Shown one piece after another: positions 1 to 14,408 of a stretch of 14,408 bases of DNA. Positions within the stretch are counted from its first letter, which is position 1; each line of letters begins with the position of its first letter. This DNA is from a virus (lineage: Duplodnaviria > Heunggongvirae > Uroviricota > Caudoviricetes), in IMG/VR virus record IMGVR_UViG_2606217117_000008. The stretch is one strand, 5' to 3'. The translations under genes and the position numbers were made by a program. The notes beneath the pieces are model-generated. The model saw only the letters and a list, made by a program, of their open reading frames with translations. It was not told where the DNA came from and did not search any database.

Positions 1-93
1 ACTCAGTTGCTGGTCTTTCTGACGGAGGGCTTCAGCCTGCTCAGAGAGCAACCTTTCCAGCTCTGCGATGCGAATGAGGTATTTCTGACTCAT
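1..93 (-). CDS. tnpC: IS66-family transposase TnpC, N-terminal 31 codons only (gene runs off the left edge)
   Basis: Reverse complement of 1-93 reads MSQKYLIRIAELERLLSEQAEALRQKDQQLS: an ATG ~30 nt downstream of the tnpB stop followed by a coiled-coil/leucine-zipper-like segment, as expected for an IS66 transposase N-terminus. Fragment is short, hence moderate confidence. Confidence 0.55.
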   Translation of the reverse strand, partial: MSQKYLIRIAELERLLSEQAEALRQKDQQLS

Positions 94-123
94 GACCGTT
101 TTTATAATGCGGTCAGGAGTTTT

Positions 124-474
124 TTACAACATTGTCAGTGAGTTACGGCTGGATGTTTTTGGCTGACGCCAGTCCAGCTTATCGAGGAGCATTGCCAGTT
201 GCGAGCGGGTAATGGATACCTTGCCGTCACGTACCGCAGGCCAGATAAACTGGCCTTCCTCCAGGCGTTTGGTGAACAGGCACAGACCATCAGCATCAGC
301 CCAAAGAATTTTGACGGTGTCACCCCGTCGGCCACGGAAGATAAACAGGTGACCGGAGAAGGGATTATCATTCAGCACATGTTGTACCTGTTCTCCCAGT
401 CCGTTGAAGGATTTACGCATATCGGTAACGCCGGCAACGAGCCAGATACGGGTACCTGATGGGAGTGAGATCAT
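124..474 (-). CDS. tnpB: IS66-family accessory protein TnpB (orfB), 116 aa
   Basis: ORF-track protein MISLPSGTRIWLVAGVTDMRKSFNGL…LFIFRGRRGDTVKILWADADGLCLFTKRLEEGQFIWP carries the characteristic IS66 Orf2 motifs. Confidence 0.9.
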   Translation of the reverse strand: MISLPSGTRIWLVAGVTDMRKSFNGLGEQVQHVLNDNPFSGHLFIFRGRRGDTVKILWADADGLCLFTKRLEEGQFIWPAVRDGKVSITRSQLAMLLDKLDWRQPKTSSRNSLTML

Positions 475-896
475 CTTCCCCTCCCGGTCAGTTCACGGAT
501 CAACACTGTGAGCAGCTCTGGCGATGGATTTTCCAGCGTCATGTTACCGTGACGGAATTCCACCTTGCAGGAACTGGCACTGACTCTGGTCTGAGTGGAA
601 GTGGATAAAGACGGCGCAATGGCCGCCACAGGTTCTTTCTGCTCATCCGGCGTTATTTCTACAGGTAATAATTCAACGCCAGTGTCAGAAGAGGTCGTTA
701 CCGGAAGACGCCGCGAAACACGCCCTTCGTTCTGCCAGAGCCTGAGCCATTTGAAAATAACATTATCATTGACGCCATTTTCACGTGCAATCTGTGCAAC
801 ACAAGCTCCAGGTTGTGATGCCAGTTCCACCATACGAAGTTTGAATTCATTCGAATAGTTTTTACGAGGTTCTTTTCGCCAGTCCTGTAATTCCAT
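471..896 (-). CDS. tnpA: IS66-family accessory protein TnpA (orfA), 141 aa
   Basis: ORF-track protein. Size, a helix-turn-helix-like segment (…CVAQIARENGVNDNVIFKWLRLWQ…) and position upstream of and overlapping tnpB fit IS66 orfA. Confidence 0.8.
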   Translation of the reverse strand: MELQDWRKEPRKNYSNEFKLRMVELASQPGACVAQIARENGVNDNVIFKWLRLWQNEGRVSRRLPVTTSSDTGVELLPVEITPDEQKEPVAAIAPSLSTSTQTRVSASSCKVEFRHGNMTLENPSPELLTVLIRELTGRGR

Positions 897-1750
897 ACTT
901 AGATGTCCGTCTATATCAGATGGGCGTCTAAGTTACCAATTCTCGTCTGATGGCTACATACGGCGGTCAGTTTACGCTTACGCAGGTACAGCTTGATGCT
1001 CCCGGAATGCTGGCTGAAACGGACGAGTACATGGCCGGAGGTAAACGACCGGCCCGTGTTTACCGGGTGGTGAACGGTATTGCTGTACTGCCGGTGACCG
1101 GCACGCTGGTGCACCGGCTGGGCGGTATGCGGCCATTTTCCGGAATGACAGGCTATGACGGCATTGTCGCCTGTCTTCAGCAGGCAATGGCAGATAGCCA
1201 GGTGCGGGGCGTACTGCTGGACATTGACAGTCCGGGCGGGCAGGCCGCCGGCGCGTTTGACTGCGCTGACATGATTTACCGCCTCCGTCAGCAGAAGCCG
1301 GTCTGGGCACTGTGCAATGACACGGCCTGTTCTGCAGCCATGCTGCTGGCGTCGGCCTGCTCCCGACGGCTGGTTACCCAGACATCCCGTATCGGCTCCA
1401 TTGGCGTGATGATGAGCCATGTCAGCTATGCCGGTCATCTGGCGCAGGCCGGGGTGGATATCACGCTGATTTATGCCGGGGCGCACAAGGTGGATGGCAA
1501 TCAGTTTGAAGCCTTACCGGCAGAGGTGCGTCAGGACATGCAGCAGCGGGTTGATGCGGCGCACCGGATGTTTGCCGAAAAAGTGGCGATGTATACGGGG
1601 CTGTCTGTGGAAGCTGTCACGGGGACAGAGGCTGCCGTTTTTGAAGGTCAGTCCGCTATTAAGGCCGGACTGGCGGATGAATTAATCAATGCGTCGGATG
1701 CCATCAGCGTGATGGCTGCGGCGCTGAACACTCATGATACAGGAGGCACT

Positions 1751-2353
1751 ATGCCGCAATTAACTGCAACGGAAGCTGCCGCGCAGGAGAACCAGCGAGT
1801 GATGGGGATCCTGACGTGTCAGGAAGCGAAAGGACGTGAACAGCTTGCCACGATGCTGGCAGGACAACAGGGCATGAGCATTGAACAGGCCCGGGCGATT
1901 CTGGCCGCGGCGGCACCACAGCAGCCGGTGGCATCCGCGCAGAGTGAAGCCGATCGCATTATGGCGTGTGAAGAAGCGAAAGGTCGTGAACAACTGGCGG
2001 CAACGCTGGCGGCGATGCCGGAGATGACGGTGGAAAAAGCCCGCCCGATCCTGGCTGCCTCACCGCAGGCGAATGCCGGGCCCTCACTTCGTGATCAGAT
2101 CATGGCCCTGGATGAGGCAAAAGGGGCAGAAGCGCAGGCTGAAAAACTGGCGGCCTGCCCGGGAATGACCGTGGAGAACGCCCGGGCTGTGCTGGCTGCG
2201 GGATCAGGTAAGGCCGAACCGGTCTCTGCATCCACAACCGCCTTGTTTGAACATTTCATGGCGAATCATTCACCGGCAGCGGTGCGGGGTGGCGTGTCAC
2301 AGACGTCAGCAGACGGTGATGCGGACGTGAAAATGCTCATGGCCATGCCATGA
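1751..2353 (+). CDS. nu3: Scaffold protein Nu3-like, from an in-frame internal start within C (200 aa)
   Basis: AGGAGG at 1741-1746 sits 4 nt upstream of the in-frame ATG at 1751. Lambda Nu3 is likewise made from an internal in-frame start in C, and the product contains the conserved IMGIL…EAKGRE…PGMTV…AR.ILAA scaffold motif. Confidence 0.5.
   Translation: MPQLTATEAAAQENQRVMGILTCQEAKGREQLATMLAGQQGMSIEQARAILAAAAPQQPVASAQSEADRIMACEEAKGREQLAATLAAMPEMTVEKARPILAASPQANAGPSLRDQIMALDEAKGAEAQAEKLAACPGMTVENARAVLAAGSGKAEPVSASTTALFEHFMANHSPAAVRGGVSQTSADGDADVKMLMAMP
1787..2209 (+). repeat. Three tandem copies of a ~141-156 nt (42-46 aa) unit inside the C/Nu3 scaffold-coding region
   Basis: Protein units (R/D)xIM(G/A)(I/C/L)…EAKG(R/A)E…LA…P(G/E)MTVE(K/N)ARxILAA begin at about nt 1787, 1943 and 2084. 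DNA similarity is visible, e.g. gaagcgaaaggacgtgaacagcttgcc (~1823) versus gaagcgaaaggtcgtgaacaactggcg (~1972). Confidence 0.6.
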
Positions 2354-2389
2354 AGTCAGTGCTGACCATCAATATGAGGTTTTAACAAA

Positions 2390-2737
2390 ATGGTGACGAA
2401 AACCATCACTGAACAGCGTGCGGAAGTACGTATTTTTGCCGGTAATGATCCGGCTCATACCGCCACAGGCAGCAGCGGGATTTCTTCTGCAACACCGGCT
2501 CTGACGCCCCTGATGCTGGATGAAGCCACCGGGAAACTGGTGGTCTGGGATGGACAGAAAGCCGGTAGTGCGGTTGGCATACTGGTACTGCCGCTTGAAG
2601 GCACAGAGACGGTGCTGACCTATTACAAGTCGGGGACCTTTGCGACGGAGGCAATCCGCTGGCCTGACAGTGTGGATGAACACAAAAAGGCAAATGCCTT
2701 TGCCGGCACAGCCCTGAGTCACGCGGCTCTGCCGTAA
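2390..2737 (+). CDS. D: Head decoration protein D, 115 aa
   Basis: Matches lambda gpD (…NDPAHTAT…LTPLMLD…GKLVVWDG…AVGILV…YKSGTF…AFAGTA…). Located between C and E as in lambda. Confidence 0.9.
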   Translation: MVTKTITEQRAEVRIFAGNDPAHTATGSSGISSATPALTPLMLDEATGKLVVWDGQKAGSAVGILVLPLEGTETVLTYYKSGTFATEAIRWPDSVDEHKKANAFAGTALSHAALP

Positions 2738-2794
2738 CACGTTATCAGGCCACCATGGCGGCCTGACTGATTTCTGAATGAAAGGAACTGATTT

Positions 2795-3823
2795 ATGGGA
2801 TTGTTTACGACCCGCCAGTTACTCGGTTATACCGAACAAAAAGTGAAATTCCGTGCGCTGTTTCTGGAGCTGTTTTTCCGCCGTACGGTGAATTTCCACA
2901 CCGAAGAGGTGATGCTGGACAAAATTACCGGAAAAACGCCGGTGGCGGCCTATGTCTCCCCGATCGTTGAAGGAAAAGTGCTTCGCCATCGCGGTGGTGA
3001 AACCCGCGTGTTACGTCCGGGCTACGTCAAGCCCAAACACGAATTTAATTACCAGCAGGCGGTTGAGCGCCTTCCTGGTGAAGATCCGGCTCAGCTGAAC
3101 GACCCGGCCTACCGTCGTCTGCGTATCATTACCGATAACCTCAAACAGGAAGAGCACGCCATTGTCCAGGTGGAAGAAATGCAGGCGGTGAATGCCGTGC
3201 TGTATGGCAAATACACCATGGAAGGGGATCAGTTTGATACTGTCGAGGTGGATTTCGGGCGCTCTGAAGGAAATAACATTGAGCAGGCTGACGGTAAAAA
3301 ATGGTCTGAGCAGGACCGTGATACGTTTGATCCGACGCATGATATTGACCTCTACTGCGATCAGGCCAGCGGCCTTGTGAATATCGCCATTATGGACGGT
3401 ACGGTCTGGCGTCTGCTGAATGGCTTTAAGCTGTTCCGCGAAAAACTGGATACCCGTCGCGGCTCAAATTCACAACTCGAAACGGCAGTGAAAGACCTGG
3501 GGGCGGTGGTGTCCTTCAAGGGGTATTACGGCGATCTGGCCATTGTGGTGGCGAAAACGTCTTATGTGGCAGAGGACGGTACCGAAAAACGTTATCTGCC
3601 GGAGGGCATGCTGGTGCTGGGGAATACGGCGGCAGAGGGGATTCGTTGCTATGGTGCCATTAAGGATGCACAGGCGTTGTCTGAAGGAGTGGTGGCTTCT
3701 TCCCGTTACCCGAAACACTGGCTGACCGTGGGCGATCCGTCCTGTGAATTCACCATGACGCAGTCCGCTCCGCTGATGGTGCTGCCGGATCCGGATGAGT
3801 TTGTGGTGGTACAGGTGAAATAA
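2795..3823 (+). CDS. E: Major capsid protein E, 342 aa
   Basis: Strong similarity to lambda gpE along the whole length (…YVSPIV.G.V.R.RGG…PGYVKPKHE…KLDTRRGSNS.LETAVKDLG…TMTQSAPLMVLPDPDEFVVVQ). Confidence 0.95.
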   Translation: MGLFTTRQLLGYTEQKVKFRALFLELFFRRTVNFHTEEVMLDKITGKTPVAAYVSPIVEGKVLRHRGGETRVLRPGYVKPKHEFNYQQAVERLPGEDPAQLNDPAYRRLRIITDNLKQEEHAIVQVEEMQAVNAVLYGKYTMEGDQFDTVEVDFGRSEGNNIEQADGKKWSEQDRDTFDPTHDIDLYCDQASGLVNIAIMDGTVWRLLNGFKLFREKLDTRRGSNSQLETAVKDLGAVVSFKGYYGDLAIVVAKTSYVAEDGTEKRYLPEGMLVLGNTAAEGIRCYGAIKDAQALSEGVVASSRYPKHWLTVGDPSCEFTMTQSAPLMVLPDPDEFVVVQVK

Positions 3824-3874: not shown

Positions 3875-4228
3875 ATGGCAACAAAAGAAGAAAATCTGAA
3901 TCGTCTTCGTCAACTGGCTGGCCTGCTGGGGCGCGAGGCGGATATGTCGGGGAGTGCTGCGGATATTGCTCAACGTGTGTCTGAGTGGGAAGAGGAGCTT
4001 GCTGTTTCCCCGGAGGGCATTATGCACTCTGATGAGAGCGGGGCTGATCAAAATCACACAGACGATGGTGAGCAGTTGAACAACACGGATGCTCCGGATG
4101 ATGTTAAAGCCGTCCGGGTACGGAAGTGCCTGCAAGTAATGGGGTATTGCCCGGAGACAGGTCGTCCCGTTGAACTGACGTACGGGGTATGCGTGTTCTG
4201 GTGCCATCATCACTGGCAACGGCCATGA
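3875..4228 (+). CDS. FI: DNA-packaging protein FI-like, 117 aa; N-terminal half resembles lambda gpFI, C-terminal part is divergent and Cys/His-rich
   Basis: AGGAGG at 3864-3869 is 5 nt upstream of the ATG at 3875. MATKEENLNRLRQLAG…AADIAQRVSEWEEEL resembles the lambda FI N-terminus, and the gene sits between E and FII. The GTG at 3827 suggested by the ORF track is rejected. Confidence 0.7.
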   Translation: MATKEENLNRLRQLAGLLGREADMSGSAADIAQRVSEWEEELAVSPEGIMHSDESGADQNHTDDGEQLNNTDAPDDVKAVRVRKCLQVMGYCPETGRPVELTYGVCVFWCHHHWQRP

Positions 4229-4618: not shown

Positions 4619-5152
4619 ATGGCGATAAAAGGGCTTGATCAGGCGATTGATAATCTGAGCCGGGTTCGTAAAAACGCCATTCCGGCGGCTTCAGCAATGA
4701 CGATTAACCGCGTGGCCACAACGGCGATTAATCAGTCTTCATCACAGGTTGCCCGGGAGACAAAGGTACGCCGGAAACTGGTTAAGGAACGGTCCAGACT
4801 GAAACGGGCGACGGTCAGAAATCCGAATGCCAAAATTATCGTTAACCGCGGTGATCTCCCTGTGATTAAGCTGGGGATCAGAATGCTGGGGCGTCGCCCG
4901 AACAGCATACTTAAAGCCGGTCAGCATCGGTATCAGCGGGCATTTATTCAGCGATTAAAAAATGGTCGCTGGCATGTCATGCAGCGTGTGGCCGGGAAAA
5001 ACCGTTACCCCATTCAGGTGGTGAAAATCCCGATGGCGGCCCCACTGAAACAGGCATTTGATGAGAATGTTGACCGTATCCGGCGTGAACGCCTGCCTAA
5101 AGAACTGGCATACGCGCTGAAACAACAACTGAGGATTGCGATAAAACGATGA
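4619..5152 (+). CDS. Z: Tail completion protein Z, 177 aa
   Basis: Matches lambda gpZ at both ends (MAIKGL.QA..NLSR…SQVARETKVRRKLVKER.RLKRATV.NP…NGRWHVMQRVAGKNRYPI.VVKIPMA…ERIRRERLPKEL.YAL..QLR..IKR). Confidence 0.9.
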   Translation: MAIKGLDQAIDNLSRVRKNAIPAASAMTINRVATTAINQSSSQVARETKVRRKLVKERSRLKRATVRNPNAKIIVNRGDLPVIKLGIRMLGRRPNSILKAGQHRYQRAFIQRLKNGRWHVMQRVAGKNRYPIQVVKIPMAAPLKQAFDENVDRIRRERLPKELAYALKQQLRIAIKR

Positions 5153-5551: not shown

Positions 5552-6208
5552 ATGGCAACACCAAATCCCCTTGAGCCGGTAAAAGGTGCCGGTACCACTC
5601 TGTGGGTTTACAACGGCAAGGCTGATGCTTATGCAAACCCGTTGTCAGACGATGACTGGCAGCGACTGGCTAAGGTGAAGGATCTGACGCCGGGCGAGAT
5701 GACGGCAGAACCCTACGATGATAACTACCTGGATGATGAAGACGCGGACTGGACCGCGACCGGGCAGGGACAGAAATCTGCAGGTGATACCAGTTTTACG
5801 CTGGCCTGGAAACCGGGAGAGGAAGGCCAGAAAGGGCTTATAGGCTGGTTTGAAAGCGGCGATGTCCGGGCCTATAAAATCCGTTTTCCGAATGGCACGG
5901 TGGATGTGTTTCGTGGCTGGGTCAGCAGTATCGGTAAGGCCGTGACGGCGAAAGAAGTGATCACCCGCACGGTGAAAGTCACTAACGTGGGTAAACCTTC
6001 TGTAGCGGAAGAACGCAGCAAAATTACGCCGGTCACTGCGATTAAGGTAACGCCGACAGGTACGGTGGAAAAAGGGAAAACAACCACCCTGACGGTTTCT
6101 TTTGAGCCGGAAAGTGCAACCGACAAGACGTTCAGAGCGGTTTCCGCCGATCCGTCGAAAGCCACCATTAGTGTGAAAGATATGACAATTACGGTAAACG
6201 GGGGTTAA
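5552..6208 (+). CDS. V: Major tail protein V, 218 aa in frame; the last ~31 codons of the lambda-like C-terminus continue in the +1 frame (6204..6299)
   Basis: Matches lambda gpV (…[13 protein letters not shown]…[55 protein letters not shown]…[41 protein letters not shown]…). The frame ends at TITVNGG* after a GGGGG run at 6200-6204. Confidence 0.9.
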
Positions 6209-6317: not shown

Positions 6318-6749
6318 ATGTTCCTGAAAACAGAACAATTTGAATATAACGGTGTGTCCGTCACGCTTTCTGAGCTGTCTGCGCTGCAGCGTATTGAGCA
6401 TCTTGCCCTCCTGAAACGGCGGGCAGAAGAGGCTGAAGCCAGCGGCAACCTGCAGGTGAGTGTGGAAGATCTTGTCAGAACCGGCGCGTTTCTGGTGGCG
6501 ATGTCCCTGTGGCATAACCATCCACAGAAAACGCAGTCACCGTCAATGAATGAGGCCGTGATGAAGATAGAGCAGGAAGTGCTCACCACCTGGCCTGCAG
6601 ATGCCATTGCCCGGGCGGAAGACGTGGTGTTGTGCCTGTCCGGGATGATCGAAGCTGTTCGTCCGGATACTGATATTACTGAAGTGGCGAAAAATAACAC
6701 GCTGACTGATGATGATTTTTCTGCGGGAAAGTCTTCGACGGCGAGCTGA
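6318..6749 (+). CDS. G: Tail assembly chaperone G, 143 aa
   Basis: Matches lambda gpG (MFLKTE.FE.NGV.VTLSELSALQRIEHLAL.KR.AE.AE…GAFLVAMSLWHNHPQKTQ.PSMNEAV..IEQEVLTTWP…SAGK.ST.S*). Confidence 0.9.
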   Translation: MFLKTEQFEYNGVSVTLSELSALQRIEHLALLKRRAEEAEASGNLQVSVEDLVRTGAFLVAMSLWHNHPQKTQSPSMNEAVMKIEQEVLTTWPADAIARAEDVVLCLSGMIEAVRPDTDITEVAKNNTLTDDDFSAGKSSTAS

Positions 6750-7189
6750 ACTTTGCCCTCAGACTGGCGCGTGAGATGGGGAGACCCGACTGGCGCGCCA
6801 TGCTTGCCGGGATGACATCCACCGAATATGCCGACTGGCACCGTTTTTACCGCACGCATTATTTTCAGGATACCCAGCTGGATATGCATTTTTCCGGGCT
6901 GACGTACGCTGTACTCAGCCTGTTTTTTTGCGATCCGGATATGCATCCCTCTGATTTCAGTCTGCTTGTCCCCCGGCATGAGGAAGAGCAGGTGGAGAGG
7001 CCGGATGAGGACAAAATGCTGATGCAGAAAGCGGCAGGACTTGCCGGAGGCGTCCGGTTCGGTGGGGACGGAGGGCGCGATATTTTATCGTCTGCGGATG
7101 TGGCGGATGTCATGGTGGATGATGCCGCATTAATGATGGCTTCAGCGGGGATTCCGGGAGGTGTGAGATATGTCCCAGCCGGTTGGTGA
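6318..7189 (+). CDS. T: Tail assembly protein G-T, made by a programmed -1 ribosomal frameshift at GGGAAAG (6725-6731) joining G to the T frame
   Basis: The T-frame ORF (…MGRPDWRAMLAGMTSTEYADWHRFYRTHYF.D..LDMHFSGLTYAVLSLFF.DPDMHP.DFSLL…) matches lambda gpT and has no start of its own. It is open back to the slippery heptamer G GGA AAG near the 3' end of G, exactly as in lambda. Confidence 0.85.
6725..6731 (+). promoter_or_regulatory. Slippery heptamer GGGAAAG for the G/G-T programmed -1 translational frameshift
   Basis: Sequence GCG GGA AAG TCT… in the G frame. The -1 frame from this point reads …KVFDGELNFALRLAREMGRPDWRAML…, colinear with lambda gpT. Confidence 0.8.
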
Positions 7190-9722
7190 TCTTGTTATTG
7201 ACCTTAGTCTGGATGCTGTCCGTTTCGATGAGCAGATGAGCCGGGTAAGGCGTCATTTTTCAGGTCTGGATACCGACGCCAGAAAAACCGCCAGTGCTGT
7301 TGAACAGGGCCTGAGCCGCCAGGCGCTGGCTGCACAAAAAGCCGGGATTTCCGTCGGGCAGTATAAAGCGGCCATGCGAACCCTGCCCGCACAGTTTACG
7401 GATATCGCCACGCAGCTTGCCGGTGGTCAGAATCCCTGGCTCATCCTGCTGCAACAGGGCGGTCAGGTGAAGGACTCCTTCGGCGGGATGATCCCCATGT
7501 TCAGGGGGCTTGCCGGTGCGATCACCCTGCCGATGGTCGGGGTCACCTCGCTGGCGGTGGCGACAGGTGCGCTGGTGTACGCCTGGTACCAGGGAGATTC
7601 CACGCTTTCAGCGTTTAATAAAACCCTGGTTCTTTCCGGTAATCAGTCCGGACTGACTGCCGATCGTATGCTGACTCTCTCAAGAGCCGGGCAGGCAGCA
7701 GGGCTGACGTTTAACCAGGCGAGAGAGTCACTGGCAGCCCTGGTGAATGCCGGTGTGCGTGGTGGTGAACAGTTTGATGCCATCAACCAGAGTGTCGCGC
7801 GTTTTGCGTCTGCATCCGGTGTGGAGGTGGATAAAGTCGCTGAAGCCTTCGGGAAGCTGACCACTGACCCGACGTCGGGACTGATGGCGATGGCGCGCCA
7901 GTTCCGTAACGTGACGGCAGAGCAGATTGCGTATGTTGCACAGCTGCAGCGTTCCGGAGACGAGGCCGGGGCATTGCAGGCGGCGAACGATATCGCCACG
8001 AAAGGCTTTGATGAGCAGACCCGTCGCCTGAAAGAAAACATGGGAACACTGGAGACCTGGGCGGATAAAACAGGGAAGGCATTCAAATCGATGTGGGATG
8101 CCATTCTGGATATCGGTCGTCCTGAATCCTCAGCGGATATGCTCGCCAGTGCGCAGAAGGCATTTGATGAGGCGGATAAAAAATGGCAGTGGTACCAGAG
8201 CCGGAGCCAGCGCCGGGGAAAGACCTCCTCTTTTCGTGCGAACCTTCAGGGGGCATGGGATGACCGGGAAAATGCCCGTCTGGGTCTGGCAGCGGCCACG
8301 CTGCAGTCGGATATGGAAAAAGCCGGTGAACTGGCGGCAAGGGACCGGGCTGAGCGTGAGGCGTCACAGCTGAAGTATACCGGAGAGGCGCAGAAGGCGT
8401 ATGAGCGCCTGCAGACGCCGCTGGATAAATATACCGCCCGTCAGAAAGAGCTGAATAAGGCCCTGAAAGACGGAAAAATCCTGCAGGCGGATTACAACAC
8501 GCTGATGGCGTCGGCAAAAAAGGATTATGAATCGACGCTGAAAAAGCCGTCAGGTGTGAAGGTGTCTGCCGGTGAGCGCCAGGAAGACCGGGCGCATGCA
8601 GCCATGCTGGCGCTTGAAACCGAGCTCAGGACGCTGGAAAAACACAGCGGTGTGAATGAGAAAATCAGCCAGCAGCGCCGGGATTTATGGGAAGCGGAAA
8701 ATCAGTATGTGGTCCTGAAAGAGGCCGCCACGAAACGGCAGTTATCTGAGCAGGAAAAATCCCTGCTGGCCCATGAGAAAGAAACGCTGGAGTACAAACG
8801 CCAGCTGGCTGAGCTGGGCGACAAGATAGAACACCAGAAGCGGCTGAATGAGCTGGCACAGCAGGCGGCGCGGTTTGAGCAGCAGCAGAGCGCAAAAGCC
8901 CGCGGCCTCACTGACCGTCAGGCGCAGCGGGAGTCGGAAGAGCAGCGCCTTCGTGAGGTGTACGGTGATAATCCGGCTGCGCTGGCGAAGGCCACATCGG
9001 CACTGAAGAACACCTGGTCTGCGGAGGAGCAGCTTCGTGGAAGCTGGATGGCCGGGATGAAGTCCGGCTGGGGCGAGTGGGCGGAAAGTGCGACGGACAG
9101 TTTTTCGCAGGTTAAAAACGCGGCCACGCAGACCTTTGACGGTATTGCACAGAATATGGCGGCGATGCTGACCGGCAGTGAGCAGAACTGGCGTGGTTTC
9201 ACCCGTTCCGTGCTCTCCATGCTGACAGAGATTTTTCTGAAGCAGGCAATGGTGGGGATTGTCGGAAGTATCGGCAGCGCCATTGGCGGGGCTGTTGGTG
9301 GGGGCGCATCCGCGTCAGGCGGTACAGCCATTCAGGCAGCTGCGGCGAAATTCCATTTTGCGACCGGAGGATTTACGGGAACCGGCGGCAAATATGAACC
9401 TGCGGGGATTGTTCATCGCGGGGAGTTTGTCTTCACGAAGGAGGCGACCAGCCGGATTGGTGTCGGCAATCTGTACCGCCTGATGCGGGGCTATGCGGAA
9501 GGTGGTTATGTCGGCGGTGCCGGAAGTCCGGCGCAGATGCGGCGGGCGGGAGGCATTAATTTTAATCAGAACAATCACGTGGTGATTCAGAACGACGGCC
9601 CCAACGGGCGGGCAGGGCCGCAGCTGATGAAAGCGGTGTATGAGATGGCCCGCAAGGGGGCACAGGATGAACTCCGGCTGCAGTTGCGTGATGGCGGTAT
9701 GTTATCAGGGAGCGGTGGATGA
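7170..9722 (+). CDS. H: Tail tape measure protein H, 850 aa
   Basis: Extensive match to lambda gpH across the length (MS.PVGDLV.DLSLDA.RFDEQM.RVRRHFSG… GISVGQYKAAMR.LPAQFTD…GGMIPMFRGLAGAITLPMVG… C-terminal GGASASGGTAIQAAAAKFHFATGGFTGTGGKYEPAGIVHRGEFVFTKEATSRIGVGNLYRLMRGYA). Start overlaps the end of T. Confidence 0.95.
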   Translation: MSQPVGDLVIDLSLDAVRFDEQMSRVRRHFSGLDTDARKTASAVEQGLSRQALAAQKAGISVGQYKAAMRTLPAQFTDIATQLAGGQNPWLILLQQGGQVKDSFGGMIPMFRGLAGAITLPMVGVTSLAVATGALVYAWYQGDSTLSAFNKTLVLSGNQSGLTADRMLTLSRAGQAAGLTFNQARESLAALVNAGVRGGEQFDAINQSVARFASASGVEVDKVAEAFGKLTTDPTSGLMAMARQFRNVTAEQIAYVAQLQRSGDEAGALQAANDIATKGFDEQTRRLKENMGTLETWADKTGKAFKSMWDAILDIGRPESSADMLASAQKAFDEADKKWQWYQSRSQRRGKTSSFRANLQGAWDDRENARLGLAAATLQSDMEKAGELAARDRAEREASQLKYTGEAQKAYERLQTPLDKYTARQKELNKALKDGKILQADYNTLMASAKKDYESTLKKPSGVKVSAGERQEDRAHAAMLALETELRTLEKHSGVNEKISQQRRDLWEAENQYVVLKEAATKRQLSEQEKSLLAHEKETLEYKRQLAELGDKIEHQKRLNELAQQAARFEQQQSAKARGLTDRQAQRESEEQRLREVYGDNPAALAKATSALKNTWSAEEQLRGSWMAGMKSGWGEWAESATDSFSQVKNAATQTFDGIAQNMAAMLTGSEQNWRGFTRSVLSMLTEIFLKQAMVGIVGSIGSAIGGAVGGGASASGGTAIQAAAAKFHFATGGFTGTGGKYEPAGIVHRGEFVFTKEATSRIGVGNLYRLMRGYAEGGYVGGAGSPAQMRRAGGINFNQNNHVVIQNDGPNGRAGPQLMKAVYEMARKGAQDELRLQLRDGGMLSGSGG

Positions 9723-10048
9723 AAACCTTTCGCTGGAAAGTGAAGCCGGATATGGAGGTGAACTCGCAGCCATCGGTGCGTGAAGTGCGTTTTGGTTACG
9801 GGTACTCACAGCGTATGGCGGCAGGGCTGAATGCTGACCTGAAAACATACAGGGTGACGCTTTCCGTGACCCGGGAGGAGGCCCGGCATCTGGAAGCGTT
9901 CCTGGCAGAGCACGGTGGCTGGAAGGCATTTTTGTGGAAGCCACCCTATGCATACCGGCAGATAAAGGTGACCTGTGCCGGGTGGTCTGCGCGGGTCGGG
10001 ATGTTGCGCGTTGAGTTCAGCGCGGAGTTTAAGCAGGTGGTGAACTGA
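9719..10048 (+). CDS. M: Minor tail protein M, 109 aa
   Basis: Matches lambda gpM (MKTFRWKVKP.M.V.S.PSVR.VRFG.GYSQR…LN.LKTY.VTLSV.REEA…FL.EHGGWK.FLW.PPY…QIKVTCA.WS.RV.MLRVEFSAEF.QVVN). ATGA overlap with the H stop. Confidence 0.95.
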   Translation: MKTFRWKVKPDMEVNSQPSVREVRFGYGYSQRMAAGLNADLKTYRVTLSVTREEARHLEAFLAEHGGWKAFLWKPPYAYRQIKVTCAGWSARVGMLRVEFSAEFKQVVN

Positions 10049-10746
10049 TGCAGGATATTCGCGAAGAAAGTCTGAACGAGTCGGTTAAGTCAGAGCAGTC
10101 ACCGCGGGTGGTACTCTGGGAAATCGACCTGACGGTGCAGGGCGGTGAGCGGTATTTTTTCTGCAATGAGCTGAATGAAAAAGGGGAGCCGGTGACCTGG
10201 CAGGGGCGTGAATATCAGGCGTACCCGATTGAGGGGAGTGGCTTTGAGATGAACGGGAAGGGCAGCAGTGCCAGACCATCGCTGACGGTGTCCAATCTGT
10301 TTGGTCTGGTCACCGGGATGGCGGAAGACCTGCAGAGTCTGGTGGGGGCCACGGTGGTCCGCCGCCGGGTGTATGCCCGTTTTCTGGATGCGGTGAATTT
10401 CGTTGCGGGCAATCCGGAGGCGGACCCGGAGCAGGAGCTGAGTGACCGCTGGGTGGTGGAGCAGATGTCGCAGCTGACAGCCATGACGGCCTCGTTTGTG
10501 CTGGCTACACCGACCGAGACGGACGGGGCGCTGTTTCCCGGTCGCATCATGCTGGCGAACACCTGTATGTGGGATTACCGGGGAGATGAATGCGGGTATA
10601 ACGGTCCTGCGGTGGCGGATGAGTTCGACAACCCCACCACGGATATCCGTAAGGACAGATGCAGCAAGTGCATGCGCGGGTGTGAACTGCGCAGGAATGT
10701 CGGCAATTTTGGCGGTTTCCTTTCCATTAATAAACTTTCGCAGTAA
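10048..10746 (+). CDS. L: Minor tail protein L, 232 aa
   Basis: Matches lambda gpL (MQDIR.E.LNE…VVLWEIDLT..GGERYFFCNE.NEKGEPVTWQGR.YQ.YPI.GSGFE.NGKG…CSKC…NVGNFGGFLSINKLSQ). TGATG overlap with the M stop. Confidence 0.95.
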   Translation: MQDIREESLNESVKSEQSPRVVLWEIDLTVQGGERYFFCNELNEKGEPVTWQGREYQAYPIEGSGFEMNGKGSSARPSLTVSNLFGLVTGMAEDLQSLVGATVVRRRVYARFLDAVNFVAGNPEADPEQELSDRWVVEQMSQLTAMTASFVLATPTETDGALFPGRIMLANTCMWDYRGDECGYNGPAVADEFDNPTTDIRKDRCSKCMRGCELRRNVGNFGGFLSINKLSQ

Positions 10747-10756
10747 ATCCCGGTTT

Positions 10757-11500
10757 ATGACACAGACTGAATCAGCGATTCTGGCGCATGCCCGGCGGTG
10801 TGCGCCTGCGGAGTCGTGCGGCTTCGTGATAAGCACGCCGGAGGGGGAGTGGTATATCCCTTGTGTGAATATTTCTGCAGAGCCGGAGGCGTATTTTCGT
10901 ATCGCACCGGAAGACTGGCTGCGGGCAGAGATGCAGGGGGAGATTGTGGCACTGGTCCACAGTCATCCCGGTGGGCTGCCCTGGCTGAGCGAGGCTGACC
11001 GGCGGCTGCAGATAAAAAGCGCACTGCCCTGGTGGCTGGTCTGCCGGGGTGACATTCACAAATTCCGCTGTGTGCCACATCTGACAGGACGGCGCTTTGA
11101 GCACGGGGTGACGGACTGTTACACGCTGTTCCGGGATGCTTATCATCTGGCGGGGACTGAGATGCCGGATTTTCATCGCGAGGATGACTGGTGGCGCAAC
11201 GGTCAGAACCTTTACCTGGACAATATGGCGGTCACCGGCTTTTACCGGGTGCCCCTGTCCTCTGCACAGGCGGGCGATATTCTGCTGTGCTGCTTTGGTG
11301 CTTCGGTACCGAACCATGCCGCCATTTACTGCGGCAACGGTGAGCTGCTTCACCATCTGCCTGAACAACTGAGTAAACGGGAGAGGTATTCCGAAAAATG
11401 GCAACGACGAACGCATTCAGTCTGGCGTCACCGCCACTGGCACGCATCTGCCTTCACGGGGATTTACAACGATTTGGCCGCCGCCTCAGCCTGTATGTGA
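10757..11500 (+). CDS. K: Tail tip assembly protein K (JAB/MPN-like plus NlpC/P60-like regions), 247 aa
   Basis: ATG at 10757, 10 nt after the L stop and in frame with track ORF 10496..11500; the upstream track start lies inside L and is rejected. Conserved motifs …CAPAESCGFVISTPEGE.YIPCVNISAEPE…EIVALVHSHPGG…WWLVCRG… and position between L and I. The 3' end overlaps I in another frame. Confidence 0.85.
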   Translation: MTQTESAILAHARRCAPAESCGFVISTPEGEWYIPCVNISAEPEAYFRIAPEDWLRAEMQGEIVALVHSHPGGLPWLSEADRRLQIKSALPWWLVCRGDIHKFRCVPHLTGRRFEHGVTDCYTLFRDAYHLAGTEMPDFHREDDWWRNGQNLYLDNMAVTGFYRVPLSSAQAGDILLCCFGASVPNHAAIYCGNGELLHHLPEQLSKRERYSEKWQRRTHSVWRHRHWHASAFTGIYNDLAAASACM

Positions 11501-12078
11501 ACACGGCAGCGGAAGCCATTCGCGCCCTGTCGATGCAGATGCCGGGCTTTCGCCGTCAGATGAACGAAGGCTGGTACCAGATACGTATTGCCGGTTATGA
11601 CACGGCACCGGAGGCGGTGTACGCCCGTCTTCACGAACAGCTGGGTGAGGGAACGGTCATCCACATTGTGCCGCGACTGGCCGGGGCCGGAAAGGGTGGA
11701 CTGCAGATTGTGCTGGGGGCGGCAGCCATCGTGGGCTCTTTCTTCACTGCCGGGGCATCAATGGCGTTATGGGGTTCAGCCCTGGCAGCCGGTGGTTTTT
11801 CTGCCACCACGATGCTGTTTTCACTTGGAGCCAGCATGATTCTGGGCGGTGTGGCCCAGATGCTGGCCCCGAAGGCAAAAACACCGGATTACCGCGCAAC
11901 GGATAACGGCAGACAGAACACGTACTTTTCCTCACTGGATAACATGATTGCCCAGGGGAACCCGATGCCGGTGCCTTACGGGGAAATGCTGGTTGGCTCC
12001 CGCCGTATATCCCAGGACATCAGCACCCGTGATGAAGGCGGGGGCGGAAAGGTCGTGGTTATCGGGCGGCAGGGGTAA
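11398..12078 (+). CDS. I: Tail tip assembly protein I, 226 aa
   Basis: Matches lambda gpI (…LASP..ARICL.GDLQRFGRR…AEAIRAL..Q.P.FR……IHIVPR.AGA..GG.QIVLGAAAI.GSFFTAGA…LFSLGASM.LGGVAQMLAPKA.TP…TDNG.QNTYFSSLDNM.AQGN…VVVIGR). Confidence 0.9.
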   Translation: MATTNAFSLASPPLARICLHGDLQRFGRRLSLYVNTAAEAIRALSMQMPGFRRQMNEGWYQIRIAGYDTAPEAVYARLHEQLGEGTVIHIVPRLAGAGKGGLQIVLGAAAIVGSFFTAGASMALWGSALAAGGFSATTMLFSLGASMILGGVAQMLAPKAKTPDYRATDNGRQNTYFSSLDNMIAQGNPMPVPYGEMLVGSRRISQDISTRDEGGGGKVVVIGRQG

Positions 12079-12085
12079 AAAGAAT

Positions 12086-12123
12086 AAAAAAATCCCGCAG
12101 TGATCGCGGACAGGAACTGCGGG
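12086..12123 (-). terminator. Hairpin plus U7 tract acting as an intrinsic terminator for - strand transcription
   Basis: Stem CCCGCAG/CTGCGGG (12094-12100 with 12117-12123) and a 16-nt loop. On the - strand it is followed by A then TTTTTTT (12092..12086). On the + strand no T-tract follows, so the signal is specific to the - strand. Confidence 0.4.
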
Positions 12124-12182
12124 AGAGTTACGAAGATTAAGTGTAAGGAATTATTCTTATATCACGACAAAAAAATTAACGC
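12086..12182 (-). ncRNA. Candidate ~95-nt small RNA on the - strand in the I-J intergenic insert (prediction only)
   Basis: On the - strand: -35 TTCACA (12216..12211), 16-bp spacer, -10 TATAAT (12194..12189), predicted start ~12182. About 55 nt of AU-rich sequence is followed by a hairpin (CCCGCAG, 16-nt loop, CTGCGGG; 12123..12094) and A+UUUUUUU (12093..12086). No plausible ORF in the transcript. Confidence 0.3.
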
Positions 12183-12188
12183 AGAGAA

Positions 12189-12216
12189 ATTATACGCGCC
12201 ACAGTCAGTTTGTGAA
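12189..12216 (-). promoter_or_regulatory. Near-consensus sigma70 promoter on the - strand (TTCACA, 16 bp, TATAAT), transcribing away from J toward I
   Basis: + strand attata at 12189-12194 is TATAAT on the - strand; + strand tgtgaa at 12211-12216 is TTCACA on the - strand. 16-bp spacer, in an AT-rich intergenic insert. Confidence 0.45.
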
Positions 12217-12287
12217 AATGTGAAGATATTCAGAATTTTTATGCCATTACCGGTTTTAACCAACAGGATTATCGGTGGGCATGAAAG

Positions 12288-12324
12288 AAAACCCCGGTAT
12301 CTGCTGATACCGGGGTTTCTCTTT
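12288..12324. terminator. Strong perfect hairpin (AAACCCCGGTATC tgct GATACCGGGGTTT) flanked by U-rich tracts on both strands; possible bidirectional terminator
   Basis: 13-bp perfect inverted repeat with a 4-nt loop. The + strand follows it with TTTCTCTTT and the - strand with TTTTCTTTC. Lies inside the AT-rich I-J insert, ~100 bp upstream of the J start. Confidence 0.45.
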
Positions 12325-12421
12325 AGCATGGCAGAAATGTGTTTCATGCTTTTCGGGCGAAGGATATCCGACTTCTGTACGGAATGGCAAGTGGCGGTTA
12401 ATTTATTCAGGGGAAGGCTGT

Positions 12422-14408
12422 ATGGGAAAAGGTGGCGGTAAGGCACACACGCCTCGTGAGGCGAAGGATAATCTCAAATCCACGCAGATGATGAGTGTGA
12501 TTGATGCGATTGGTGAGGGACCGATAGAAGGCCCGGTGAAGGGACTGCAGAGTATCCTGGTGAACAAAACCCCGCTGACGGACACGGACGGTAATCCCGT
12601 GATACACGGTGTGACCGCGGTCTGGCGTGCCGGGGAGCAGGAGCAGACACCACCGGAAGGCTTTGAGTCCTCCGGAGCTGAAACCGGACTGGGCGTGGAA
12701 GTGACGAAGGCAAAACCGGTGACGCGCACCATTACGTCCGCGAACATTGACCGCCTGCGGGTTACCTTCGGGGTGCAGTCACTGGTGGAGACCACCTCAA
12801 AGGGTGACCGTAACCCGGCATCCGTCCGCCTGCTGATTCAGTTACAGCGTAACGGTAACTGGGTGACAGAAAAGGACGTCACCATTAACGGCAAGACCAC
12901 CTCACAGTTCCTGGCCTCGGTGATTCTGGATAATCTGCCTCCCCGGCCCTTTAACATCCGGATGGTCAGGGAGACGGCGGACAGCACCACGGACCAGCTG
13001 CAGAATAAGACGCTGTGGTCGTCATACACCGAAATCATCGATGTGAAACAGTGCTACCCGAACACGGCCATTGTGGGGCTGCAGGTGGATGCGGAGCAGT
13101 TCGGCGGCCAGCAGATGACGGTGAACTACCATATCCGCGGTCGCATCATCCAGGTGCCGTCAAACTATGACCCGGAAAAACGCACGTACAGTGGTATCTG
13201 GGACGGCAGCCTGAAACCGGCATACAGCAACAACCCGGCCTGGTGTCTGTGGGACATGCTGACTCACCCGCGCTACGGCATGGGAAAACGTCTGGGGGCG
13301 GCGGATGTGGACAAGTGGGCGCTGTATGCCATCGGGCAGTACTGCGACCAGACGGTCCCGGATGGTTTCGGGGGGACCGAGCCGCGGATGACCTTTAATG
13401 CGTACCTGGCACAACAGCGTAAGGCGTGGGACGTTCTCAGTGATTTCTGCTCGGCGATGCGCTGTATGCCGGTATGGAACGGCCAGACGCTGACGTTCGT
13501 TCAGGACCGTCCGTCGGATGTGGTGTGGCCGTACACCAACAGCGATGTGGTGGTGGATGATAACGGCGTGGGGTTCCGCTACAGCTTCAGTGCCCTGAAG
13601 GACCGGCACACGGCGGTGGAGGTGAATTACACCGACCCGCAGAACGGCTGGCAGACCTCCACGGAACTGGTGGAAGACCCGGAAGCCATACTGCGCTACG
13701 GACGCAACCTGCTGAAGATGGACGCGTTCGGCTGTACCAGCCGCGGTCAGGCCCACCGTGCCGGACTGTGGGTGATAAAGACCGAACTGCTGGAAACGCA
13801 GACGGTGGATTTCACGCTCGGGTCTCAGGGGCTGCGGCACACACCCGGTGACATCATTGAAATCTGTGATAACGACTATGCCGGGACCCTGACCGGCGGA
13901 CGTGTCCTGTCCATTGATGCTGCCACCCGCACCCTGACGCTGGACCGTGAAGTGACACTTCCGGAGACCGGTGCCGCCACGGTGAACCTGATTAACGGCA
14001 GCGGTAAGCCGGTGAGTGTGGACATCACCGAACACCCCGCGCCGGACCGGATACAGGTCAGTACCCTGCCTGATGGTGTGGAGACATACGGGGTGTGGGG
14101 ACTCTCCCTGCCGTCACTGCGCCGTCGCCTGTTCCGCTGTGTCTCCGTCCGGGAAAACACGGACGGCACCTTTGCCATCACGGCGGTGCAGCACGTACCG
14201 GAAAAAGAAGCCATCGTGGATAACGGTGCCCGCTTTGAGCCGCAGTCAGGTTCCCTGAACAGCGTCATCCCACCGGCAGTGCAGCACCTGACGGTGGAGG
14301 TGAGCGCAGCTGACGGACAGTATCTGGCGCAGGCGAAATGGGACACGCCGCGGGTGGTGAAGGGTGTGCGCTTCAGTCTGCGCCTGACCAGTGGTAAGGG
14401 AACGGATG
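12422..14408 (+). CDS. J: Tail tip/host-specificity protein J, N-terminal ~662 codons (gene continues past the right edge)
   Basis: ATG at 12422 preceded by GGGGAAGG. MGKGGGKAHTPREAKDNLKSTQMMSVIDAIGEGPIEGPV… and downstream segments (…WSSYTEIIDVKQCYPNTA…SNNPAWCLWDMLTHPRYGMGKRLGAADVDKWALY…DAFGCTSRGQAHRAGLW.IKTELLETQTVDF…) are colinear with lambda gpJ. No stop before 14408. Confidence 0.95.
   Translation, partial: MGKGGGKAHTPREAKDNLKSTQMMSVIDAIGEGPIEGPVKGLQSILVNKTPLTDTDGNPVIHGVTAVWRAGEQEQTPPEGFESSGAETGLGVEVTKAKPVTRTITSANIDRLRVTFGVQSLVETTSKGDRNPASVRLLIQLQRNGNWVTEKDVTINGKTTSQFLASVILDNLPPRPFNIRMVRETADSTTDQLQNKTLWSSYTEIIDVKQCYPNTAIVGLQVDAEQFGGQQMTVNYHIRGRIIQVPSNYDPEKRTYSGIWDGSLKPAYSNNPAWCLWDMLTHPRYGMGKRLGAADVDKWALYAIGQYCDQTVPDGFGGTEPRMTFNAYLAQQRKAWDVLSDFCSAMRCMPVWNGQTLTFVQDRPSDVVWPYTNSDVVVDDNGVGFRYSFSALKDRHTAVEVNYTDPQNGWQTSTELVEDPEAILRYGRNLLKMDAFGCTSRGQAHRAGLWVIKTELLETQTVDFTLGSQGLRHTPGDIIEICDNDYAGTLTGGRVLSIDAATRTLTLDREVTLPETGAATVNLINGSGKPVSVDITEHPAPDRIQVSTLPDGVETYGVWGLSLPSLRRRLFRCVSVRENTDGTFAITAVQHVPEKEAIVDNGARFEPQSGSLNSVIPPAVQHLTVEVSAADGQYLAQAKWDTPRVVKGVRFSLRLTSGKGTD

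What the first reader, a model, noticed from the sequence alone, without database searches (positions are those of the whole stretch)
1..1050. IS66-family element inserted at the 5' end of head protease gene C; prophage probably defective
The IS (tnpA-tnpB-tnpC on the - strand) ends near 980, and lambda-C-like sequence begins immediately after at a position equivalent to about lambda gpC residue 65. Portal gene B and the start of C would therefore be separated from the rest of C by more than 2 kb of oppositely oriented IS. That should truncate the prohead protease and have polar effects on late-operon transcription. Internal initiation at Nu3 (1751) could still supply scaffold protein.
Basis: partly seen in the sequence, partly recalled or inferred. 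Interest (0 to 1): 0.45.

Follow-up and report, generated by a model that had tools for sequence, protein, structure and literature searches.

The report
ISEc23 insertion splitting prophage protease gene
A common E. coli jumping gene (ISEc23) has landed inside the head-protease gene of a lambda-like prophage and cut off its first 45 codons, which probably cripples the prophage; this is an ordinary, well-understood kind of event.

Summary
Window 1-981 is the tnpA-side 981 bp of ISEc23 on the minus strand. ISEc23 is a 2532-bp IS66-family element, and this copy is identical to annotated copies elsewhere. It ends in ...CGCTTAC at 981.

The lambda C-type S49 prohead protease gene resumes at 982, which is nt 135 of a 1506-nt gene. 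The site is codons 45-48, equivalent to lambda gpC residues ~48-51 rather than 65.

The window is a whole draft contig (JNQN01000076.1). Another contig of the same assembly (JNQN01000125.1) carries terminase-W-portal, the first 142 nt of C and the other IS end. The two junctions share the 8-bp duplication GCAGGTAC. Two closed genomes show the complete insertion with identical sequence.

The portal gene is intact and the whole SppA-like catalytic domain lies downstream of the IS. That downstream remainder has lost its native GTG start and ribosome-binding site, and it has lost a conserved N-terminal segment. The Nu3-like internal start at 1751 keeps a strong ribosome-binding site.

Loss of intact gpC, which is essential in lambda, probably makes the prophage defective. 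A secondary frameshift in D in three sibling assemblies fits this. Strong transcriptional polarity is doubtful. Interest is low.

The parts
1..981 (-). tnpA-side 981 bp of a 2532-bp ISEc23 (IS66 family) copy. The contig ends inside tnpC.
   Evidence: Identical to the last 981 bp of the complete IS in L006. That IS is 2532/2532 identical to the annotated ISEc23 copies in L002, L003, L004 and L021.
1..93 (-). First 31 codons of tnpC (the DDE transposase), cut by the contig end.
   Evidence: The ATG is at 93 on the minus strand. The full 537-aa product with DDE_Tnp_IS66 domains is present in L005 and L006. A 485-aa part lies on sister contig L034.
124..474 (-). tnpB (IS66 Orf2-like accessory protein, 116 aa).
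   Evidence: Pfam PF05717, E=1.1e-36. Identical to WP_000624722.
471..896 (-). tnpA (IS66 accessory HTH protein, 141 aa).
   Evidence: Pfam PF01527, E=5e-12. Identical to WP_000422741.
958..981 (-). Terminal inverted repeat of the IS (GTAAGCGTAAACTGACCGCCGTAT on the minus strand).
   Evidence: It matches the other end (GTAAGCGTCAACGGAGCACCGTAT) at 18 of the first 24 positions. The boundary was fixed by comparison with four other insertions.
982..989 (+). Right-hand copy of the 8-bp target-site duplication GCAGGTAC (nt 135-142 of gene C).
   Evidence: The same 8 bp directly precede the other IS end on JNQN01000125.1 (L034), and in L005 and L006. It is a single copy in intact prophages.
982..2353 (+). 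3' remainder of the lambda C-type S49 prohead protease gene (third base of codon 45 through the stop).
   Evidence: 100% identical to the S49 peptidase gene of VR50 and others. Pfam Peptidase_S49, E=4e-36. PHROG 53 head maturation protease, profile positions 52-583. The SppA-like domain corresponds to residues 77-289 of the intact protein.
950..2353 (+). Hybrid ORF of 467 aa: 11 codons from the IS end (ATG at 950) fused in frame to codons 46-501 of C. It has no ribosome-binding site.
   Evidence: ORF list and alignment. Anti-SD pairing is -0.1 kcal/mol at 950, +0.6 at 1007 and -3.2 at 1031. Real gene starts in the window give -3.0 to -11.6, and the native GTG start gives -9.1.
1740..2353 (+). 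Nested Nu3-like scaffold ORF (ATG at 1751, 200 aa) with its AGGAGG ribosome-binding site at 1740-1745.
   Evidence: SD pairing is -10.3 kcal/mol. It aligns with lambda Met309, whose own SD scores -10.8. PHROG head scaffolding and capsid assembly families match.

Best explanation
**What happened (shown)**
A copy of ISEc23 (IS66 family, 2532 bp) transposed into gene C of a lambda-like prophage, antisense to the late operon. It duplicated the 8-bp target GCAGGTAC, which is nt 135-142 of C. This is a simple insertion, with no deletion or rearrangement.

**What it left behind (shown)**
- The portal gene is intact.
- The native GTG start of C now yields a 61-aa stub: 47 C residues plus 14 IS-encoded residues.
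- The remaining 456 codons hold the entire SppA-like catalytic domain and the Nu3-like C-terminal part. They have lost the native start, its ribosome-binding site and the coupling to portal translation.
- They have also lost a conserved N-terminal segment.
- The insertion is inherited in a lineage of E. coli.

**Consequences (inferred)**
- Little or no active prohead protease is made.
- The nested Nu3-like scaffold is still translated from its own strong site at 1751.
- Downstream late genes are still transcribed, because Q-antiterminated polymerase reads through the IS.
- On its own the prophage would therefore assemble proheads that cannot mature. It is defective unless gpC is supplied in trans by a co-resident lambdoid prophage.
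For: **Junctions and duplication**
- The right junction is in the window. The left junction is on JNQN01000125.1 of the same assembly. Only 61 bp of the IS lie between the two contigs.
- The complete insertion sits in two closed chromosomes whose sequence is identical to window 1-3495.

**IS identity**
- The IS is 2532/2532 identical to four annotated ISEc23 copies. Each of those has its own 8-bp duplication.

**Intact gene for comparison**
- The intact 501-aa C overlaps the portal gene in VR50 and N10.
- The two fragments cover PHROG 53 profile positions 4-51 and 52-583.
- The SppA homology begins at residue 77.
- N-terminal residues 1-36 are 72% identical to lambda, against 37% for residues 37-76.

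**Translation signals**
- No SD precedes ATG 950, 1007 or 1031. A strong SD precedes 1751 and the native GTG.

**Function**
- C is essential in lambda (Table 1 of PMC10695390).
- Three sibling assemblies with the same junction share a 1-nt deletion that truncates D to 40 aa. This fits relaxed selection on the head genes.
- No terminator-like site lies on the plus strand inside the IS.
Against: - Nothing contradicts the insertion itself.
- The functional consequence is untested. The catalytic domain is complete, the hybrid ORF is in frame with an IS-borne ATG, and low-level translation of a truncated protease cannot be excluded.
- The role of the N-terminal 45 residues of gpC-type proteases is unknown.
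- The strain holds at least two more contigs with the same tail module, so co-resident prophages might complement.
- In the closed sibling genome L006, every other gene called in the 21.4-kb stretch held (lysis genes through tail gene I) has its normal length. The lesion is therefore recent, and decay evidence rests on a single secondary event.
Confidence: 0.85

Rival explanations
1. The insertion is real but functionally tolerated. An N-terminally truncated protease, started at the IS-borne ATG 950 or at ATG 1007 or 1031, is made from the read-through late transcript. It works well enough for the prophage to remain viable.
For: - The hybrid ORF is open and in frame.
- The whole SppA-like domain (residues 77-289) and the Nu3-like part lie downstream of the IS.
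- No terminator-like site lies on the late-transcript strand inside the IS.
- All other structural genes are intact in sibling genome L006.
Against: - None of the candidate starts has a usable ribosome-binding site (-0.1, +0.6 and -3.2 kcal/mol, against -9.1 at the native start).
- The lost residues 1-36 are the best-conserved stretch between this protein and lambda gpC (72% identity). They are part of the family profile.
- A secondary frameshift in D spread in a sub-lineage.
Confidence: 0.1
2. The IS-phage junction is an assembly artefact. On this view it is a chimeric draft contig that joins a multi-copy IS to a multi-copy prophage, and the gene is intact in the real genome.
For: - The window is a draft contig that ends inside repeats at both ends.
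- Its right 7.9 kb is duplicated exactly on another contig of the same assembly.
- Metagenome contigs L035 and L036 are chimeric across this IS.
Against: - The same junction occurs in two closed chromosomes, and in several independent isolate and metagenome assemblies.
- The reciprocal junction, with the matching 8-bp duplication, lies on a second contig of the same assembly.
- A chimera would not produce a target-site duplication.
Confidence: 0.01
3. The IS marks a larger rearrangement, such as an IS-mediated deletion or inversion, or recombination between two ISEc23 copies. The upstream head genes would then be lost or displaced, not merely interrupted.
For: ISEc23 is multi-copy, with up to 42 matching places per genome. 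The window alone cannot show what lies beyond the IS.
Against: - Identical 8-bp direct repeats flank the element, and the left flank continues colinearly into C nt 1-142, portal, W and terminase.
- Recombination between different copies would leave unmatched flanks.
Confidence: 0.02

Closest known systems
ISEc23 (IS66 family insertion sequence of E. coli)
   Same: It has the same 2532-bp sequence as annotated copies (100% identity). It shares the tnpA-tnpB-tnpC organisation, imperfect terminal inverted repeats beginning GTAAGCG, and 8-bp target-site duplications.
   Different: Nothing about the element differs. Only the insertion site is particular, and it is absent from 5,426 complete RefSeq E. 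coli genomes.
Bacteriophage lambda gene C / Nu3 (S49 prohead protease with a nested scaffold gene)
   Same: The gene order is portal-C-D-E. C starts at a GTG overlapping the portal gene. Both have an S49/SppA-like domain, are 57% identical overall, and have a conserved internal SD+ATG for the nested scaffold product.
   Different: The intact homologue is 501 aa against 439 aa in lambda, with a longer repeat-containing C-terminal part. Here the gene is split after codon 47 by the IS.
IS-disrupted prophages of E. coli and Shigella. One example is ISEc23 in gene FII of the near-identical prophage of strains N10 and 23CRST038.
   Same: The same IS, in the same antisense orientation, interrupts a head gene of the same prophage type in another lineage, with its own duplication GTATTGAA.
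   Different: It is an independent event in a different gene (FII, head-tail joining) of a different host lineage.

Membership tests
IS66 family / ISEc23 | Three consecutive ORFs tnpA, tnpB and tnpC on one strand, with tnpB carrying the IS66 Orf2 domain. | tested here: met
   Pfam HTH_Tnp_1 for tnpA and TnpB_IS66 (E=1e-36) for tnpB. The tnpC start is in the window. Full tnpC with the zf-IS66 and DDE_Tnp_IS66 domains is in L005 and L006, and in part on sister contig L034.
IS66 family / ISEc23 | Terminal inverted repeats beginning 5'-GTAAGCG. | tested here: met
   Both ends start GTAAGCGT, and 18 of the first 24 positions match.
IS66 family / ISEc23 | 8-bp target-site duplication. | tested here: met
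   GCAGGTAC flanks both ends in the source assembly (window plus L034) and in L005 and L006. Four other copies each have their own 8-bp repeat.
IS66 family / ISEc23 | Sequence identity to the named element. | tested here: met
   2532/2532 identical to copies that RefSeq annotates as ISEc23 family. ISfinder itself was not available.
Lambda gpC-type S49 prohead protease | Peptidase S49 / SppA-like catalytic domain. | tested here: met
   Pfam PF01343, E=4e-36. B. subtilis SppA (PDB 3rst), E=1e-17 over residues 77-289. PHROG 53 head maturation protease, E=1e-206.
Lambda gpC-type S49 prohead protease | Position between the portal and head decoration/major capsid genes, with the start overlapping the portal gene. 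| tested here: met
   Annotated intact loci L001 and L021, and lambda itself.
Lambda gpC-type S49 prohead protease | Nested in-frame scaffold (Nu3) product from an internal start. | tested here: inconclusive
   A strong SD+ATG at 1751 is homologous to lambda ATG 5342. The RefSeq-annotated lambda start at 5132 is not conserved here. Actual translation cannot be shown with these tools.
Lambda gpC-type S49 prohead protease | Proteolytic activity and catalytic residues. | not tested
   A Ser aligns with an SppA Ser in the hmm alignment. Its catalytic role was not checked against a structure or the literature. Activity needs experiment.

The most novel reading that the evidence does not exclude
The IS end fortuitously supplies an in-frame ATG. 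The read-through late transcript could then yield a low level of an N-terminally truncated protease-scaffold protein, alongside a 61-aa N-terminal stub. Such fragments might act as dominant-negative inhibitors of head assembly for co-resident or superinfecting lambdoid phages that share this module. The broken prophage would then be a host-beneficial interference element, not mere debris.
Probability: 0.03. Interest if true: 0.45.

Novelty: already known. Interest (0 to 1): 0.1.

Why it matters
It matters little beyond annotation. It shows that this prophage, and its copies in a dozen or so related assemblies, should be annotated as carrying an IS-interrupted prohead protease pseudogene. The called 448- or 467-aa 'S49 peptidase' is not an intact gene. 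The prophage should not be counted as intact in prophage inventories. It is one more example of IS-driven prophage grounding in E. coli. A second independent ISEc23 hit in the same head module, and a follow-on frameshift in D, illustrate the usual path of decay.

Tried and rejected
**Junction not in complete genomes**
- I searched 5,426 complete RefSeq E. coli genomes for the junction and found none. The source had to be found by exact-protein look-up instead.

**False lead on the IS boundary**
- IS matches at first seemed to extend to 990-995, overlapping the phage match from 982. This suggested the IS ended later, or that there was microhomology.
- Direct comparison showed these were chance extensions among top-ranked hits. 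The IS ends at 981.

**Contig ends rejected as evidence of spread**
- Dozens of draft contigs end or begin near C nt 135-137: the 45-aa partial protein P0016, and 448-aa ORFs at contig starts. I considered these as evidence that the insertion is widespread.
- I rejected this. Contig ends are spread over residues 30-47, involve several alleles, and do not include IS sequence.
- Only contigs containing an explicit IS junction were counted.

**Searches that gave nothing**
- A literature search for the accession numbers found nothing.
- The Medina et al. 2010 gpC paper is not held.
- An Rfam scan of the window gave no hits.
- The promoter scan gave no outward-reading promoter above background.

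**Not run**
- Structure prediction was not run. The tool reports confidence and secondary structure only, so it could not show whether the lost N-terminus contacts the catalytic domain.

Full report
**What the window is.** An exact-protein look-up with the tape-measure protein shows that the 14,408-base window is a whole draft contig. It is JNQN01000076.1 of assembly GCA_000704145.1. GenBank names attached to the matching protein stub suggest an E. coli isolate of the '2-222-05_S3' series. That attribution is indirect.

**The IS part (1-981).**
- The minus strand carries tnpA (471-896, HTH_Tnp_1), tnpB (124-474, TnpB_IS66, E=1e-36) and the first 31 codons of tnpC (1-93).
- Thousands of E. coli records match this stretch. 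RefSeq names the element ISEc23, IS66 family.
- I fetched three complete copies in unrelated contexts: a DMT transporter gene, traD on a plasmid, and an ISEc12 inside lom. All share sequence up to ...TTTACGCTTAC and then diverge. Each is flanked by its own 8-bp direct repeat.
- The IS end in the window is therefore base 981.
- The apparent extension of IS matches to 990-995 was chance similarity in top-ranked hits.
- The full element is 2532 bp. The copy studied here is identical over all 2532 bases to those three copies and to a fourth in strain N10.
- Its ends are imperfect inverted repeats beginning GTAAGCGT, matching at 18 of the first 24 positions.

**The phage part (from 982).**
- From 982 onward the window is 99.9-100% identical to the 'S49 family peptidase' gene of lambda-like prophages in many E. 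coli genomes.
- In intact annotated loci (VR50, N10) the gene is 1506 nt (501 aa). It starts at a GTG that overlaps the last 11 nt of the portal gene. Head decoration, major capsid, FI, FII and the tail genes follow in lambda order.
- Window base 982 corresponds to nt 135 of that gene.
- Alignment with lambda gpC (57% identity) places the break at codons 45-48 of the homologue, equal to lambda residues ~48-51.

**The other side of the IS.**
- No complete RefSeq E. coli genome contains the junction.
- The 467-aa hybrid ORF (950-2353) was found by exact look-up in two closed chromosomes (UGFX01000002.1 and OZ038772.1). It was also found in several draft and metagenome contigs.
- In both closed genomes the order is terminase, W, portal (530 aa), a 61-aa C stub, then tnpC-tnpB-tnpA on the opposite strand, then the hybrid ORF.
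- There the IS is 2532 bp and is flanked by GCAGGTAC on both sides.
- OZ038772.1 is identical to window 1-3495.
- The 61-aa stub was then traced to contig JNQN01000125.1 of the same assembly as the window. That contig holds the terminase 3' end, W, portal, C nt 1-142 and 1490 bp of the tnpC side of the IS.
- Its junction reads ...CAACAGCAGGTAC|GTAAGCG.
- Together the two contigs cover all but 61 bp of the IS and show the 8-bp duplication.
- The event in the source strain is therefore a simple transposition. It is not a deletion, a rearrangement or an assembly chimera.
- At least a dozen independent samples carry one or both explicit junctions. The insertion is inherited in a lineage.

**What is left of C.**
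- The native GTG start has a strong ribosome-binding site (-9.1 kcal/mol) inside the portal gene. It now gives a 61-aa product: 47 C residues plus 14 IS-encoded residues.
- The downstream remainder is open from an ATG at 950 inside the IS end. The ORF has 11 IS-derived codons followed by codons 46-501.
- The starts at 950, 1007 and 1031 have essentially no anti-Shine-Dalgarno pairing (-0.1, +0.6 and -3.2 kcal/mol). Real genes in the window give -3.0 to -11.6.
- The SppA-homologous domain spans residues 77-289 (PDB 3rst, E=1e-17), so it lies entirely downstream of the IS.
- The two fragments cover PHROG 53 'head maturation protease' profile positions 4-51 and 52-583.
- The lost segment is not a dispensable leader. 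Residues 1-36 are 72% identical between this protein and lambda gpC. Residues 37-76 are 37% identical and the catalytic domain 64%.
It aligns with lambda Met309 (coordinate 5342), which has the same site (-10.8).
- The lambda RefSeq Nu3 start at 5132 is a GTT codon here.

**Consequences.**
- These steps are inferred. C is essential in lambda (PMC10695390, Table 1). Together with portal and Nu3 it forms the initiator of head assembly (PMC3224144).
- Without the native start and the conserved N-terminus, active protease is unlikely to be made in useful amounts. The scaffold should still be made.
The scan found no terminator-like site on the late-transcript strand inside the IS.
- From established knowledge of lambda, Q-modified polymerase from pR' resists terminators.
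- Downstream genes have their own ribosome-binding sites.
- One observation supports loss of selection. Three other assemblies with the identical IS-C junction (L007, L008, L010) share a 1-nt deletion that truncates the head decoration gene D to 40 aa.
- Against over-reading this, the closed sibling genome L006 has all other structural genes intact. The IS insertion is therefore recent.
- Complementation by co-resident prophages is possible. The source assembly has two more contigs with the same tail module, one 100% and one 99.8% identical to window 6474-14408.

**Comparison and verdict.**
- This is a textbook IS insertion by a known element into a known gene family of a known prophage type.
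- A near-identical prophage in strains N10 and 23CRST038 carries the same IS in gene FII, in the same orientation, as an independent event.
- Novelty is nil as a kind, and interest is low.

Noticed in passing
window 4174-4181 (gene FI, 3875-4228): A 1-nt deletion (TT to T at 4181) and two nearby substitutions shift the last ~16 codons of FI. The product is 117 aa instead of 127 aa, and the usual FI-FII overlap is lost. No complete E. coli genome has this deletion; the best hits are 762 nt against 761 nt. It could be a draft sequencing error or a second lesion.
   Followed up: partly
window 6197 (gene V, 5552-6208): An extra A in an A-run (GGTAAACGGGGG) relative to VR50 frameshifts the major tail gene V. 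It stops at 218 aa instead of 248-250 aa, losing the end of the C-terminal Ig-like part. The homopolymer context makes a sequencing error plausible.
   Followed up: partly
window 6474-14408; L015 1-7935; L014 1-7928: The right 7.9 kb of the window (G through J) is 100% identical to another contig of the same assembly, and 99.8% identical to a third. Either the strain has several lambdoid prophages sharing a tail module or the assembly is redundant. The link between the head and tail halves of this contig is therefore less certain than the IS junction.
   Followed up: partly
L007 1657-2003, L008 1519-1865, L010 1534-1880 (gene D; window equivalent 2390-2737, nt 121 of D): Three independent assemblies carrying the same IS-C junction share a 1-nt deletion in head decoration gene D (40-aa stub). 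The window, L005, L006 and L009 have D intact. This looks like secondary decay in a sub-lineage.
   Followed up: yes
L021 6446-8977 (strain N10; also H75, strain 23CRST038): An identical ISEc23 copy interrupts gene FII of a 98.6% identical prophage, in the same antisense orientation, with duplication GTATTGAA. This is an independent hit on the same head module.
   Followed up: yes
window 1740-1753; lambda NC_001416 5342 versus 5132: The strong SD+ATG at window 1751 is homologous to lambda ATG 5342 (SD -10.8 kcal/mol). The Nu3 start annotated in lambda RefSeq (5132, SD -6.9) corresponds to a GTT codon in this phage. The conserved site suggests the shorter ~130-200-aa scaffold product is the conserved one.
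   Followed up: partly
window 12079-12421 (between I and J): A 343-nt gap separates tail genes I and J. It is also left unannotated in RefSeq for the N10 prophage. It contains a 113-aa GTG ORF (12100-12441) with no PHROG match. Lambda has no such spacer.
   Followed up: partly
L016 ~2960 (GCA_054600255.1); proteins P0002-P0042: Many database entries are short N-terminal fragments of this protease with frameshifted tails (55-106 aa). One uninterrupted locus (L016) has a 1-nt deletion at about codon 37. Some of these may be assembly errors, but the 5' part of C seems to be disrupted often.
   Followed up: no
window 8889 (gene H, 7170-9722): There is a 21-bp in-frame deletion in the tape-measure gene relative to sibling genomes (850 aa against 857 aa). 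All three contigs of the source assembly share it.
   Followed up: no
ISEc23 flanks: window 982-989; L002, L003, L004, L021: Three of the five 8-bp duplications contain GTAC (GCAGGTAC, CAAGTACG, CAGTACAC). The other two are GACAAGAA and GTATTGAA. This hints at a weak target preference, but the sample is far too small to judge.
   Followed up: no
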